From an uncultured Nitrososphaerota archaeon (GTDB lineage: Archaea; Thermoproteota; Nitrososphaeria; Nitrososphaerales; Gagatemarchaeaceae), in assembly GCA_963838925.1 (NCBI GenBank), contig CAWISW010000001.1:192001-256000 (forward strand): a DNA stretch of 64,000 nt, in the 5' to 3' direction. The position numbers and the translations under genes were made by a program. The notes beneath the pieces are model-generated. The model was not told the DNA's origin, made no database searches, and saw only the letters and a list, made by a program, of their open reading frames with translations. Of the stretch, positions 60,161-61,905 are shown piece after piece (position 1 is the stretch's first letter; each line of letters opens with the position of its first letter).

Positions 60161-60199
60161 TAGCCCGTCCAGGGTCCGCACATGATTAGGTGCGAATCC
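60161..60199 (-). repeat. att-like site A (hairpin + tRNA-Gln nt 61-73)
   Basis: Minus strand GGATTCGCACCTAATCATGTGCGGAC-CCTGGACGGGCTA. Confidence 0.85.
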
Positions 60200-60240
60200 G
60201 CAGCCTGCTGCTGCCGTTGTCCGTGATACGAGGTAGCGAG

Positions 60241-60402
60241 CTAGGTCTCAAGTTCTCTCCTCAGTCTTATGATTAGGTCCAGGGCTTCGGACTCCTCCAG
60301 GAATGTCTCCGGACTGCGCTTCCACGCTATCGTGACGCTTCGTATCAGTTGCGTTTCGAGGTCCGCGAGCGTCGCGACGAGCGCTGCCCTCTGTTCAGCC
60401 AA
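60241..60402 (-). CDS. Small cassette protein (53 aa, helical)
   Basis: SD AGGGTGA 7 nt before TTG; MAEQRAALVATLADLETQ...RLRRELET*. Confidence 0.55.
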   Translation of the reverse strand: MAEQRAALVATLADLETQLIRSVTIAWKRSPETFLEESEALDLIIRLRRELET

Positions 60403-60515
60403 CCATCAATCACCCTGTCCGCCCAGGCCTGGAATCTCTCCGGATCTTTCCGCAGCTCCTCCATGTACTCGATTGCCTCTCTCAGTTCCCTGGCATCTTG
60501 CTGCTGCGAACTCAT
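60345..60515 (-). CDS. Small cassette protein (56 aa)
   Basis: AATAAATA box ~25 nt upstream; MSSQQQDARELREAIEYMEELRKDPERFQAW... Confidence 0.55.
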   Translation of the reverse strand: MSSQQQDARELREAIEYMEELRKDPERFQAWADRVIDGWLNRGQRSSRRSRTSKRN

Positions 60516-60602
60516 GCAAGCCCCATAACACGAGGGTCCTATTTATTCACCTACCGGAAAAGGAACGTTCGCTGACGGGTAAACACAGCCGAAATGAGGA
60601 GA

Positions 60603-60640
60603 TAGCCCGTCCAGGGTCCCCCTGTTTTGGGGGCGACTAG
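60603..60640 (-). repeat. att-like site B
   Basis: Minus strand CTAGTCGCCCCCAAAACAGGGGGAC-CCTGGACGGGCTA followed by TCTCCTCATTTC. Confidence 0.85.
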
Positions 60641-60712
60641 GACATCGTCCTTCCGAGATGGATCTTCCACGAACGTGCTTTAATATCTGGCCGTGAATGA
60701 TAACTGGTCTGC

Positions 60713-60973
60713 ATGGCTGCCAGGATGAGGGATGCCGTTAGCTCCGTCGAGAGGATACTACTTCCTCGTCTAAACAGCATTGACGGAGAGCTAAAATCAA
60801 TAAACACAAGGATAGACTCTGTTTACACAAGAATCGACGAAATGGACAAGCGGAACGACATCAGGTTTGAGGCAATCAGGAACGAAATACGAGCTGTTTC
60901 TGAAAAGGTCGAATTCGTCAAGGACGTGGAGCGGCTGAAGGTCGAAGTAGCTGAATTGAAGAAGCGACGATAA
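60713..60973 (+). CDS. Small coiled-coil cassette protein
   Basis: Heptad pattern INTRIDSVYTRIDEMDKR; TTTAATAT box at ~60679. Confidence 0.65.
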   Translation: MAARMRDAVSSVERILLPRLNSIDGELKSINTRIDSVYTRIDEMDKRNDIRFEAIRNEIRAVSEKVEFVKDVERLKVEVAELKKRR

Positions 60974-61124
60974 GCCGTCTCAACTCAACAATGAAGCGAA
61001 GCCCGAACGCAATGCATCCATCTCTCTATTGTACGTTGCCTAAAGCCATCAATTTTCAGCCTAGATTATCGATTCTAGAGCTATCGCTAGTCCACAATGG
61101 ATAACGGAGTCCAAAGTGAGGAGA

Positions 61125-61163
61125 TAGCCCGTCCAGGGGCTGCACCCGTTTAGGGGCTTTTAG
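61125..61163 (-). repeat. att-like site C
   Basis: Minus strand CTAAAAGCCCCTAAACGGGTGCAGCC-CCTGGACGGGCTA followed by TCTCCTCACTTT. Confidence 0.85.
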
Positions 61164-61182
61164 GCGGGAATTTGGCGCTCCT

Positions 61183-61596
61183 TCAGGCCAGTTTGACTGG
61201 GTCGATGGATTCGAGCCAGTCGACCTTCTTCAGCGCTTCGTCATGAGTCATTATCCTCTTCTCGCCAGCGCCGTCCATCATGGCCAAGAGCGTAGCGTCC
61301 CTGCCCCCAATGCCCAAGTGCGAGTACTTCTTCAGCATCTCTATTGCGCCGAGAGCGTGCCGGTAATCAAAGTCCGTTATGACCAGCGGGAATCGAAGGA
61401 ACTCGTCCAACTTCTCTCCGCCTATCGGAGCTCCAAGGCTCTTGACGAGAAAGTGGGCTAATTCCATCACGATTATTGTGTTTATCGCTATCTGCTCTGA
61501 CTTGAGGGCCTTCTCCACGGGTCCGACGACCGATTGATGCTCCGAACAGTCACTGTCCAAGTAGTAGGCCCAGATGTTCGTGTCAATGGTGAGCAT
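61183..61596 (-). CDS. vapC: PIN-domain toxin (VapC family)
   Basis: TIDTNIW, ME, GGRDAT, MTHDEAL acidic PIN residues; overlaps the AbrB gene. Confidence 0.9.
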   Translation of the reverse strand: MLTIDTNIWAYYLDSDCSEHQSVVGPVEKALKSEQIAINTIIVMELAHFLVKSLGAPIGGEKLDEFLRFPLVITDFDYRHALGAIEMLKKYSHLGIGGRDATLLAMMDGAGEKRIMTHDEALKKVDWLESIDPVKLA

Positions 61597-61834
61597 GGCC
61601 GACACCCCAGATGTTCTTGAGGTCAACGGGCTTGATCTTCGAGCCGTGCACGCAGCCTCTCAGCTCTGAAATGAATTCGTCCGCACTTACCTCCGGCGAA
61701 AGCAGCAGATCCTTCCCCTTCTTGGATATCCTGAGTTTCTGTTCCGGTCTTAGTTTGAGTTCTGACCTTATCTCGTTCGGAATCACTATCCTCCCTCGCT
61801 CGTCTATGACTGCCTCGCCCATCAGAATTCCCAT
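61583..61834 (-). CDS. AbrB/MazE/SpoVT family antitoxin (VapB)
   Basis: IDERGRIVIPNEIRSELKL; TTTATGTA box at ~61855-61862. Confidence 0.88.
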   Translation of the reverse strand: MGILMGEAVIDERGRIVIPNEIRSELKLRPEQKLRISKKGKDLLLSPEVSADEFISELRGCVHGSKIKPVDLKNIWGVGHAHH

Positions 61835-61866
61835 CCCATTTATTTTCCCGCTAGTACATAAACCTG

Positions 61867-61905
61867 TAGCCCGCTCCGGGCCTGCACCCAATTAGGTACG
61901 AATCC
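61867..61905 (-). repeat. att-like site D (diverged core)
   Basis: Minus strand GGATTCGTACCTAATTGGGTGCAGGC-CCGGAGCGGGCTA; 30/39 identical to site A without gaps. Confidence 0.8.

What the first reader, a model, noticed from the sequence alone, without database searches (positions are those of the whole stretch)
60161..61905. Cassette junction site conserves a hairpin, not only sequence (attC-like behaviour)
Seen: sites A, C and D are colinear 39-mers (A vs D 30/39 identical). Just 5' of the tRNA-derived core each has an imperfect palindrome: TTCGCAC-N8-GTGCGGA (A), GTACCT-AATT-GGGTGC (D), GCCCCT-AAAC-GGGTGC (C), GTCGCCCC-N7-GGGGGAC (B). The sequences differ but pairing is largely kept on the tRNA-sense strand, often through G-T pairs. 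Sites A and D begin with GGATTCG, echoing the T-arm GGTTCG. Inference: the site may be read as a folded single strand mimicking an extended T arm, or as a dyad recombinase-binding site.
Basis: partly seen in the sequence, partly recalled or inferred. Interest (0 to 1): 0.7.

Follow-up and report, generated by a model that had tools for sequence, protein, structure and literature searches.

The report
Cassette junction sites: dyad, not hairpin
The repeated junctions between small gene cassettes beside a glutamine tRNA gene of this soil archaeon are portable recombination sites built from copies of the tRNA's own 3' end, and their small "hairpin" is conserved as sequence, not as a folded structure.

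Summary
Sites A (60161-60199), B (60603-60637), C (61125-61182) and D (61867-61905) each repeat the last 13 nt of tRNA-Gln(CTG) (62432-62504, minus strand) and are followed by an imperfect palindrome; A and D match at 30 of 39 positions. They separate four cassettes. Congeners carry similar arrays of 2-8 repeats, with no recombinase gene inside them. The VapBC cassette recurs in five other arrays at 87-96% identity, against 76-86% for the neighbouring ArgRS gene.

The title claim, that structure rather than sequence is conserved, is not supported:
- In 46 distinct homologous sites, 76.6% of palindrome cells pair, but column composition alone predicts 74.6%.
- RNAalifold's covariation term is about zero on both strands.
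- Arm folding energies sit at the 26-29th percentile of background.
- The G-T bias toward the tRNA-sense strand holds in this genus (16 vs 5) but reverses in sister genera (8 vs 12).
- Cargo genes face either way, so the palindrome is not a terminator.

The palindrome consists of two T-arm-derived half-sites. The left is a diverged direct continuation of the tRNA copy. The right is a nearly invariant inverted copy, GGATTCG-N-ACC. The same 39-mer fronts 40 unrelated cargos.

Best reading: a double-stranded, sequence-specific recombinase-binding arm of an att site, served by an integrase acting in trans.

The parts
60161..60199 (+). Site A. Core TAGCCCGTCCAGG at 60161-60173. Class-2 arm at 60174-60199, with half-sites GCACAT (60178-60183) and AGGTGC (60188-60193), then GAATCC (60194-60199).
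   Evidence: (D2)
60603..60637 (+). Site B. Exact core at 60603-60615, then a unique arm GTCCCCC-TGTTTT-GGGGGCGAC (60616-60637). This arm was not found at any other junction examined.
   Evidence: (cluster 8, single member)
61125..61182 (+). Site C. Exact core at 61125-61137, then a class-1 arm: GGCT, GCACCC (61142-61147), GTTT, AGGGGC (61152-61157), TTTTAGGCGGGAATTTGGCGC. The arm travels with the VapBC cassette.
61867..61905 (+). Site D. Degenerate core TAGCCCGCTCCGG at 61867-61879, then a class-2 arm with GCACCC (61884-61889), AATT, AGGTAC (61894-61899) and GAATCC (61900-61905).
   Evidence: (D2)
62432..62504 (-). tRNA-Gln(CTG), the anchor of the array (attB side). Its + strand reads TAGCCCGTCCAGG-ATTCGAACCTGG.
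   Evidence: ARAGORN; Rfam tRNA, 57.2 bits
60581..60602 (+). Trailer-like right end of cassette 1 (AAACACAGCCGAAATGAGGAGA). It is colinear with the tRNA's own 3' trailer at 62410-62431.
   Evidence: D1
61103..61124 (+). Trailer-like right end of cassette 2 (AACGGAGTCCAAAGTGAGGAGA).
   Evidence: D1
62410..62431 (+). Right end of cassette 4, which serves as the present 3' trailer of the tRNA gene (AACAGAGTAAGAAATGAGCGAA).
   Evidence: D1
60174..60602 (-). Cassette 1. Two overlapping small ORFs (60345-60515 and 60241-60402, minus strand). The cassette is shared with L031 at 86% nucleotide identity.
60616..61124 (+). Cassette 2. An 86-aa coiled-coil ORF at 60713-60973 on the + strand. It is shared with L031 (81% nucleotide, 88% amino-acid identity).
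61138..61866 (-). Cassette 3. VapC, a PIN-domain protein (61183-61626), and an AbrB/MazE-type VapB (61583-61891 as the ORF lister calls it; a later start is likely). It is found in five other arrays at 87-96% identity.
61880..62431 (-). Cassette 4. A 119-aa ORF at 61916-62275, minus strand, with no family match.

Best explanation
Each junction is a site-specific recombination site. It consists of a 13-nt core identical to the 3' end of tRNA-Gln, inside which cassettes are exchanged, plus an arm that belongs to the cassette on its right. In sites A and D, and more weakly in C, the arm is a dyad of two T-arm-derived half-sites. The left half (GG-GGCT-GCACC) is a diverged direct continuation of the tRNA copy. 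The right half, read on the tRNA-sense strand, is GGATTCG-N-ACC, the same letters as the + strand of the tRNA's own T arm (CCAGGATTCGAACCTGG), so it is an inverted T-arm copy. A direct copy and an inverted copy of one sequence are complementary by construction, and that produces the apparent hairpin. The dyad is most likely bound as double-stranded DNA, sequence-specifically, by a tyrosine recombinase or an accessory protein supplied in trans.

What is shown: the sites and their architecture; that cassettes are discrete, shared units bounded by cores; that the module is conserved as sequence across unrelated cargos. What is inferred: the recombinase type, double-stranded binding, and a crossover in core positions about 7-13.
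For: 1. Arrays are real and recurrent. The exact 13-mer occurs in 9 of 41 related genomes, all in the same genus, mostly as clusters of 2-8 copies on one strand within 1-19 kb, beside tRNA-Gln(CTG) where that end of the array was in the DNA fetched.
2. Cassettes are units. The VapBC cassette (window 61122-61873) is 87-96% identical in five other arrays, while the adjacent ArgRS gene is 76-86% identical. Its six left junctions have six different left flanks but the same class-1 arm. Its five detected right junctions share the same right end, followed by five different arms.
3. The 39-nt class-2 module is portable. Among 47 sites it fronts 40 non-alignable cargo sequences and follows 44 non-alignable left contexts. 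It occurs in 33 of 97 genomes of the family. In an order-wide sample it was found in 0 of 226 genomes from other families.
4. Sequence is what is conserved. Columns 39-41 and 43-49 (GGT, then CGAATCC) are at least 90% conserved or invariant, and the flanks are unconserved. The dyad pairs 76.6% of cells against 74.6 +/- 0.6 expected from columns alone, and against at most 51% when slid.
5. No recombinase sits inside the arrays. None of the 99 array ORFs scanned matched a recombinase family in Pfam at E <= 1e-4. No PF00589 match lies in any array in six-frame scans of 23 genomes of the genus.
6. Dyad symmetry in substrates is described as crucial for most tyrosine recombinases, and short thaumarchaeal att sites (median 17 bp) are documented (passages read in PMC8371274, and PMC6563490).
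7. Core positions 8-13 are hypervariable at the VapBC right junctions only (CTCCGG, TTTCGG, TCTAGG, TCCAGC), although the cassettes are about 95% identical. That is what an overlap or heteroduplex region would show.
Against: No recombinase has been tied to the sites. Two array-bearing genomes (G008, G014) have no PF00589 match at all, though they are 88% and 82% complete. Binding was not tested.

A small excess of pairing over column composition does exist. 0 of 500 shuffles reach 76.6%. With shuffling kept within genus groups, Watson-Crick cells number 201 against 194.5 +/- 3.0 (53 of 2000 permutations as high), and Watson-Crick plus tRNA-sense G-T cells number 225 against 219.9 +/- 1.9 (29 of 2000). 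Pair 33-38 shows C-G 17, U-A 13, U-G 6, other 10, but the split largely follows genus. Within the window's genus, G-T pairs favour the tRNA-sense strand 16 to 5. These leave some room for selection on pairing. The two halves are unequally conserved, so the functional unit may be a single right half-site rather than a dimer site.
Confidence: 0.6

Rival explanations
1. attC-like folded single strand. The tRNA-sense strand of the arm folds into a hairpin, an extended T-arm mimic, and the recombinase recognises that structure.
For: Imperfect palindromes sit at the same offset in A, C, D and in the non-homologous B. In the window's genus, G-T pairs favour the tRNA-sense strand 16 to 5, with 86.5% against 77.8% of stem cells paired. 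There is a small excess of pairing over shuffles. A passage of the review PMC8371274 states that an archaeal XerA binds stem-looped att sites with low affinity.
Against: Column composition explains 74.6 of the 76.6% pairing. Pair 29-42 is unpaired in 26 of 46 sites, including a conserved C-T mismatch in the sister genus. The strand bias reverses outside the genus, 8 to 12. RNAalifold finds only a 4-bp stem on the + strand and no hairpin on the tRNA-sense strand, with covariation terms of -0.02 and -0.11. Class 1, which includes site C, shows no signal, with 198 of 500 shuffles as high. Arm MFEs are about -4 kcal/mol, at the 26-29th percentile of background. The sequence is highly conserved, which from my recall is the opposite of attC sites.
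Confidence: 0.08
2. dif-like Xer site. The class-2 dyad has 11-6-11 geometry (GGxxxxGxACC, 6 nt, GGTxCGAATCC). It would be a Xer-type core site where strand exchange itself occurs, making the cassettes IMEX-like.
For: The geometry can be read directly from the alignment. It matches the dif geometry of two 11-nt inverted repeats and a 6-nt spacer stated in PMC8371274 (passage). Tandem accumulation at one site resembles IMEX arrays, which I recall and did not test.
Against: If exchange took place in the dyad centre, the reconstituted tRNA would inherit its T loop from the cassette's left half-site. In most sites that half reads GGGGCTGCACC, which is not a T loop. The tRNA side has no matching right arm. 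The site occurs many times per genome, not once. The best genome-wide match outside the array lies at a contig end beside another tRNA-like core, not at a unique terminus-like site.
Confidence: 0.1
3. RNA-level element. The hairpin plus the tRNA-like 3' end would terminate, stabilise or direct tRNase Z / RNase P processing of cassette transcripts.
For: In three of the four window cassettes the cargo gene is on the minus strand and ends 10-40 nt from the arm. A T-containing, trailer-like sequence follows the core on the tRNA-sense strand (D1).
Against: Across 63 class-1, class-2 and B-type junctions, the nearest long ORF behind the arm is on the minus strand in 35, on the + strand in 27, and absent in 1. 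This is a crude longest-ORF call, but long ORFs of 300-490 aa occur in both orientations. No T-run follows the hairpin on the tRNA-sense strand. A 5' acceptor-strand partner is no commoner than a shuffled 7-mer: 1 of 63 exact and 12 of 63 at >= 6/7, against 1 and 13 for the control. Rfam reports nothing but the tRNA.
Confidence: 0.07
4. No present function. The arms would be relics of old tandem integrations whose integrases decayed, and the dyad a fossil of T-arm sequence.
For: Tandem integration at tRNA genes with later integrase loss is documented for archaea and for Prochlorococcus islands (passages in PMC8371274; PMC6563490; bioRxiv 10.1101/2020.12.28.424599). Several cores and arms are degenerate, for example site D and some L032 sites.
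Against: A 39-mer that stays at least 90% conserved or invariant at 19 of its 39 positions, in front of 40 unrelated cargos in at least three genera, is hard to explain without selection. Cassette boundaries coincide exactly with the modules, which random deletion would not produce. Cassettes are more similar between species than the housekeeping neighbour.
Confidence: 0.12

Closest known systems
Integron attC sites and cassette arrays
   Same: Integrase-less cassettes of one or two genes sit in tandem. Each carries one recombination module containing an imperfect palindrome. A short shared core lies at every junction. Cargo is rich in toxin-antitoxin pairs and regulators.
   Different: Here the sequence of the module is conserved and structure-preserving covariation is absent. 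The stems are 4-6 bp and no more stable than background. The core is a tRNA 3' end, not GTTRRRY. The array is anchored on a tRNA gene rather than an attI beside an intI gene. No integrase lies next to the array. Cargo faces either way.
Tandem tRNA-targeted integrated elements (archaeal iMGEs of Thaumarchaeota; tycheposon islands of Prochlorococcus)
   Same: Direct repeats of a tRNA 3' end flank elements inserted one after another, with the intact tRNA at one end. Thaumarchaeal att sites are short. Passages read: PMC6563490 and bioRxiv 10.1101/2020.12.28.424599.
   Different: These units are 0.4-5 kb, carry no integrase or replication gene, and have a standardised arm module shared by unrelated cargos. 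In the passages I read, integrase-less units are treated as remnants rather than as a class of cassettes. I did not read either paper in full.
Xer/dif sites and IMEX elements
   Same: The class-2 dyad has the 11-6-11 inverted-repeat geometry (dif geometry from PMC8371274).
   Different: There are many copies per genome. The exchange point inferred here lies in the tRNA core, outside the dyad. No Xer assignment was made.

Membership tests
Integron attC | Secondary structure is conserved while sequence is not, seen as compensatory covariation | tested here: not met
   76.6% paired against 74.6% expected from column composition. RNAalifold covariation terms are -0.02 and -0.11. Class 1: 198 of 500 shuffles as high. 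Nineteen of the 39 module positions are at least 90% conserved or invariant.
Integron attC | A stable folded bottom strand with a long imperfect stem | tested here: not met
   Median MFE of 35-nt arms is -4.0/-3.8 kcal/mol for class 2 (26-29th percentile of 3000 background windows) and -2.6/-1.6 for class 1.
Integron attC | R' core GTTRRRY with its inverse R'' | tested here: not met
   The shared junction core is TAGCCCGTCCAGG. The motif definition is from my recall.
Integron attC | An IntI-type integrase with attI beside the array | tested here: not met
   No PF00589 match lies in or next to any array. The IntI-specific insertion was not examined in the distant recombinases.
tRNA-targeted tyrosine-integrase att sites | A direct repeat identical to the tRNA 3' end, with an intact tRNA at one end | tested here: met
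tRNA-targeted tyrosine-integrase att sites | The integrase is encoded by the integrated element | tested here: not met
   No recombinase family among the 99 array ORFs scanned. No PHROG match for the 14 unassigned array proteins and 2 window ORFs scanned. Six-frame PF00589 scans place no match in the arrays.
tRNA-targeted tyrosine-integrase att sites | Dyad symmetry at or near the exchange point | tested here: met
   AGCCC-N6-GGGCT lies within and next to the core, and the class-2 dyad starts 4 nt from it.
Xer/dif | Two 11-nt inverted repeats around a 6-nt spacer | tested here: met
   Read from alignment A1. The definition comes from a passage of PMC8371274.
Xer/dif | A single site per replicon, used by a chromosomal Xer enzyme | tested here: not met
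   Several copies per genome. No Xer enzyme was identified.
Intrinsic or archaeal terminator of cargo genes | Lies downstream of the gene on the sense strand, with an oligo-T tract | tested here: not met
   Cargo orientation is 35 minus against 27 plus. No T-run follows the stem on the tRNA-sense strand.
tRNA-like element (minihelix) | An acceptor stem formed with a 5' partner strand | tested here: not met
   1 of 63 exact and 12 of 63 at >= 6/7, against 1 and 13 for a shuffled 7-mer. Rfam reports no tRNA-like match at the sites.

The most novel reading that the evidence does not exclude
The sites would be the attC-equivalents of an undescribed, tRNA-anchored, integron-like gene-capture system in soil Thaumarchaeota. 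Integrase-less cassettes of one or two genes each carry a standard 40-60-bp module: a 13-nt tRNA-Gln 3' core, a dyad of direct plus inverted T-arm copies, and a trailer-like far end that rebuilds the tRNA's 3' flank. A recombinase encoded elsewhere captures, stacks and exchanges them between species. The dyad could then act as a dif-like 11-6-11 site or even as a folded strand.
Probability: 0.35. Interest if true: 0.8.

Novelty: new variant of a known kind. Interest (0 to 1): 0.5.

Why it matters
If cassettes this small move on their own using a standard tRNA-derived module and a trans-acting recombinase, a family of abundant, uncultured soil archaea has a gene-capture platform that works like an integron but is built from different parts. 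It would explain how toxin-antitoxin pairs, regulators with dehydrogenases, and transporters spread between species faster than the core genome diverges. It would also supply a short sequence signature for finding such cassettes in metagenomes. For the narrow claim, the result is a caution: a palindrome beside a tRNA-derived core can arise simply from direct and inverted copies of the self-complementary T arm, and need not indicate a folded substrate.

Tried and rejected
- A fuzzy-regex site search timed out. I replaced it with Hamming scans.
- RNA evidence: no RNA holder was listed among the 13 runs, so transcription and processing could not be examined.
- Laying contigs of four soil or peat metagenomes showed contigs that match only the site modules (60160-60199, 61118-61162, 62431 onward) and run on into unlike DNA. 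One contig covers 61134-61906 and then diverges. The joints reported (for example 60199 to 62430, and 61167 to 62419) have sides of 24-43 nt at a 90% likeness threshold and probably come from related organisms. I do not count them as excision.
- The recombinase search failed to name the enzyme. PF16795 has no match in the genome. PF00589 has one match, a 431-aa gene beside glnA. It is syntenic at 83-92% amino-acid identity in four congeners and 65% in a fifth. Close orthologues (65% or more) were not found in the array-bearing genomes G008, G014, G020 and G022, and 94%-identical fragments occur in another genus, so the gene itself looks mobile. A 30%-identical paralogue lies at G000:C3:437157-438197.
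- PHROGs gave nothing for the 14 unassigned array proteins and 2 window ORFs.
- The T-arm-mimic helix (CCAGG with CCTGN) and the AGCCC/GGGCT helix gave no covariation signal.
- The 398-aa ORF at the distal end of the array (58694-59890) has no homologue beside other arrays.
- I dropped 3 of 50 anchored hits as chance matches inside unrelated sequence before building alignment A1: window 59271, L080 5645 and L087 2991.
- I did not build a covariance model or run R-scape. R-scape is not on hand, and anchored gap-free alignments made a model unnecessary.
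Full report
WHAT IS THERE. The window holds one tRNA gene, tRNA-Gln(CTG), at 62432-62504 on the minus strand (Rfam 57.2 bits). On the + strand its 3' end reads TAGCCCGTCCAGG, followed by the T loop, ATTCGAACCTGG. That 13-mer recurs exactly at 60161 (A), 60603 (B) and 61125 (C), all on the same strand. These and the tRNA are its only exact copies in the 1.84-Mb genome. A degenerate copy, TAGCCCGCTCCGG, lies at 61867 (D). A, C and D are colinear beyond the core: the repeat finder family D2 gives 78% and 70% identity to A over 40 nt. 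The repeat also extends to the left. About 22 nt resembling the tRNA's 3' trailer (AAC-GAG...AAATGAGGAGA) precede the cores of B, C and the tRNA (family D1).

The four intervals are small cassettes:
- two overlapping small ORFs on the minus strand;
- an 86-aa coiled-coil ORF on the + strand;
- VapB and VapC (PIN, E = 1.3e-12) on the minus strand;
- a 119-aa ORF on the minus strand.

THE OBSERVATION. The palindromes are present as described. On the tRNA-sense strand they read TTCGCAC/GTGCGGA (A), GTACCT-AATT-GGGTGC (D), GCCCCT-AAAC-GGGTGC (C) and GTC(G)CCCC/GGGGGAC (B). Taken singly they are unremarkable. Fold z-scores of 77-nt windows run from -1.47 to +0.40 on either strand, and C's stem is not in the minimum-energy fold of the tRNA-sense strand.

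CONTEXT FROM RELATIVES. The exact 13-mer occurs in 9 of 41 related genomes, counting the window's own, and all are in the same genus (8 of 22 congeners). It mostly appears as same-strand clusters of 2-8 copies within 1-19 kb, beside tRNA-Gln(CTG) and ArgRS where that end of the array was in the DNA fetched. To the right of the core the arms fall into classes:
- class 2: GGCT GCACCT GATT AGGTGC GAATCC (window sites A and D);
- class 1: the same start, then TTTAGGGGCTTTTAGGCGGGAATTTGGCGC (site C);
- class 3: ATTC...GGTTCGATTTGTCCC (not in the window);
- singletons such as site B.

Record titles of matching public contigs name a Thaumarchaeota MAG and an uncultured-archaeon MAG. The 61% G+C and the soil and peat holders suggest the soil group I.1c, but that is my inference and was not tested.

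CASSETTES ARE DISCRETE, SHARED UNITS. The VapBC cassette (61122-61873) is 96.0, 95.5, 95.4, 91.1 and 86.6% identical to stretches in five other arrays. ArgRS next door is only 76-86% identical to the same species. Six left junctions of this cassette have six unrelated left flanks, a canonical core and the class-1 arm. Five right junctions share the end ...AGTACATAAACCTG and continue into five different arms. So the arm travels with the cassette on its right, the trailer-like end travels with the cassette on its left, and exchange happens within the core. Positions 8-13 of the core are hypervariable at exactly these right junctions (CTCCGG, TTTCGG, TCTAGG, TCCAGC), although the cassettes are about 95% alike. 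From that I infer that the overlap region lies there, flanked by the short dyad AGCCC/GGGCT.

Cassettes 1 and 2 of the window also recur in another genome at 86% and 81% identity. None of the 99 array ORFs of 90 aa or more, chosen by a crude non-overlap rule, matched a recombinase family in Pfam. Cargo consists of PIN/VapBC, MazF, MarR with dehydrogenase, TetR with SDR, ABC transporters and similar genes. Six-frame PF00589 scans of 23 genomes of the genus place no match in any array.

TESTING THE HAIRPIN. To avoid selecting on the stem, I collected class-2 sites by anchoring only on the core and on GAATCC, 20 nt downstream. The pattern was found in 20 of 301 genomes sampled across the order. 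All were in one family: 19 of 74 other members of that family, and 0 of 226 genomes from the other 19 families. Within the family it was found in 33 of 97 genomes. A few listed rows are evident chance matches. After fetching the loci I had 50 anchored hits, dropped 3 as chance, and aligned 47 sites (46 distinct) without gaps.

Results on this alignment:
- The 12-pair dyad pairs 76.6% of cells, against 74.6 +/- 0.6 when 3' letters are shuffled within columns, and 19-51% when partners are slid. The dyad is real, but composition, meaning conservation of two half-site sequences, explains nearly all of it.
- The excess comes from pair 33-38 (C-G 17, U-A 13, U-G 6, other 10), which splits largely by genus, and from pair 29-42, which is unpaired in 26 of 46 sites.
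- Shuffling only within genus groups leaves a small excess: Watson-Crick cells 201 against 194.5 +/- 3.0, with 53 of 2000 permutations as high.
- RNAalifold predicts a 4-bp stem on the + strand (-2.21 kcal/mol, covariation -0.02). On the tRNA-sense strand it predicts no hairpin, only a 3-bp CCC/GGG pairing at the core (-2.31 kcal/mol, covariation -0.11).
- The 17 class-1 sites give 77.5% against 76.3 +/- 1.0, with 198 of 500 shuffles as high, and slid partners reach 62-70%.
- Two alternative helices, AGCCC/GGGCT and a T-arm mimic CCAGG/CCTGN, give 77.4 against 77.5 and 60.4 against 59.1.
- DNA-parameter MFEs of the first 35 nt of the arms are -4.0/-3.8 (class 2), -2.6/-1.6 (class 1) and -5.4/-5.6 kcal/mol (B). 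These are the 26-29th, 47-72nd and roughly 10th percentiles of 3000 background windows from the same loci.

WHAT THE DYAD IS MADE OF. On the tRNA-sense strand the right half reads GGATTCG(A/C/T)ACC. In the sister genus it reads GGATTCGAACC, which is letter for letter the + strand of the tRNA's T arm (CCAGGATTCGAACCTGG). It is therefore an inverted T-arm copy. It is also the best-conserved part of the arm: columns 39-41 and 43-49 are at least 90% conserved or invariant. The left half (GGGGCTGCACC, or GGATTCCGACC in an "ATTC" subclass) is a diverged direct continuation of the tRNA homology. A direct copy and an inverted copy of one sequence are complementary by construction, so the palindrome needs no selection for folding. 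The arrangement has 11-6-11 geometry, as dif sites do (a passage of PMC8371274).

WHY IT IS STILL FUNCTIONAL SEQUENCE. Among the 47 sites, the 400 nt behind the arm fall into 40 non-alignable groups, and the 380 nt before the core fall into 44. The flanking columns of the alignment are unconserved. A module kept in front of unrelated cargos in several genera is under selection of its own. Metagenome contigs agree: several match only the module and then run on into unlike DNA.

NOT A TERMINATOR, NOT A tRNA-LIKE END. Behind the arm, the nearest long ORF is on the minus strand at 35 junctions, on the + strand at 27, and absent at 1 of 63. This is a crude longest-ORF call and unreliable for small ORFs, but ORFs of 300-490 aa occur in both orientations. 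A 5' acceptor-strand partner within 120 nt is no commoner than a shuffled 7-mer. Rfam finds nothing at the sites. No RNA run was listed.

MECHANISM. I consider a tyrosine recombinase acting in trans the most likely agent. It would exchange strands inside the 13-nt core. The cassette's trailer-like end would rebuild the tRNA's 3' flank after insertion, and the arm dyad would serve as a sequence-specific duplex binding site. The enzyme itself is unidentified. The genome has a 431-aa tyrosine recombinase beside glnA. It is syntenic in five congeners, but close orthologues were not found in four array-bearing genomes, and it occurs as 94%-identical fragments in another genus. A 30%-identical paralogue also exists. 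The genomes are 54-96% complete, so a missing gene proves little.

COMPARISON WITH WHAT IS KNOWN.
- Tandem re-use of tRNA att sites and short thaumarchaeal att sites are described (passages in PMC6563490, and PMC8371274).
- Prochlorococcus islands built by successive tRNA integrations, with partial tRNAs and degenerate elements, are described (passages in bioRxiv 10.1101/2020.12.28.424599).
- Integrons in Archaea are reported (10.1101/2022.02.06.479319; I saw only the search listing and the start of the abstract).
- A term search of the paper on the soil family Gagatemarchaeaceae (PMC10640624) found no occurrence of integrase, mobile genetic, cassette or toxin.
- My searches found no description of integrase-less mini-cassette arrays with a standard tRNA-derived module in archaea. 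That is a statement about those searches only. I did not open any paper's supplementary files.

VERDICT. The sites and palindromes are real, and the junction module is a conserved, portable recombination site. The specific claim that structure rather than sequence is conserved (attC-like behaviour) is not supported. The wider array system looks like a new variant of tRNA-targeted integration and deserves follow-up.

Noticed in passing
window 61122-61873; L033 3417-4196; L035 11695-12446; L040 2804-3562; L032 9801-10551; L037 3182-3934: The VapBC cassette is 87-96% identical across six genomes, while the neighbouring ArgRS gene is 76-86% identical. One genome (G018) carries it twice, once in the tRNA-Gln(CTG) array and once at a second locus beside a decayed tRNA copy and another tRNA.
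   Followed up: partly
G000:C2:218509 and 219186 (outside the window): tRNA-Gln(TTG) has the near-identical core TAGCCCGGCCAGG. A core-like repeat, TGGCCCGTCCAGG, lies about 680 nt away, which may be a one-cassette array at the second glutamine tRNA.
   Followed up: no
G000:C2:1-40 (contig start): GGATTCGAACC-CCGGGG-GGTTCGATACC, an 11-6-11 T-arm dyad, follows a different tRNA-like core (GGCCCGACGG) right at a contig end. The same site architecture may serve other tRNAs and may break assemblies.
   Followed up: partly
G000:C3:539200-539260: Three T-arm-like motifs, including the dyad GAGATTCAAACC-TGAACG-GGTTCAATTCC, lie about 7 kb from tRNA-Leu(AAG).
   Followed up: no
window 60241-60515 (minus strand); L031, L032, L079: Two overlapping small ORFs (56 and 53 aa) are conserved together in three other loci at 64-86% amino-acid identity. 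They may be a two-gene module of the toxin-antitoxin kind, but no family matches.
   Followed up: partly
L033 6377-8050 and 15480-17247 (G009): Two MarR plus zinc-dehydrogenase cassettes, each fronted by a class-3 arm (ATTC...GGTTCGATTTGTCCC), sit in the same array. One has the dehydrogenase split into two ORFs.
   Followed up: no
G000:C3:13610-14902 (L042 1165-2460, minus strand): A 431-aa tyrosine recombinase lies next to a 219-aa ORF that looks to me like the C-terminal part of glutamine synthetase (no family scan was run). It is syntenic in five congeners. 94%-identical fragments occur in two genomes of another genus, and relatives at 27-56% identity are present in up to 13 copies per genome across the family.
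   Followed up: partly
window 61138-61182 and class-1 arms in L032-L037: The class-1 arm carries AGGGGCT twice as a direct repeat 17 nt apart, a TTTTAGG tract and a conserved GGAATTTG. Where the cargo is on the + strand (L033 4167), the ORF starts about 58 nt after the core, so the arm might double as a promoter for leaderless transcripts. This is an untested idea.
   Followed up: no
L039 2578-2675; L031 7377; L040 3632: Some tRNA-Gln-like genes beside arrays appear to carry an insertion or intron after the anticodon region. ARAGORN calls L039 'tRNA-???' and misses L031 and L040.
   Followed up: no
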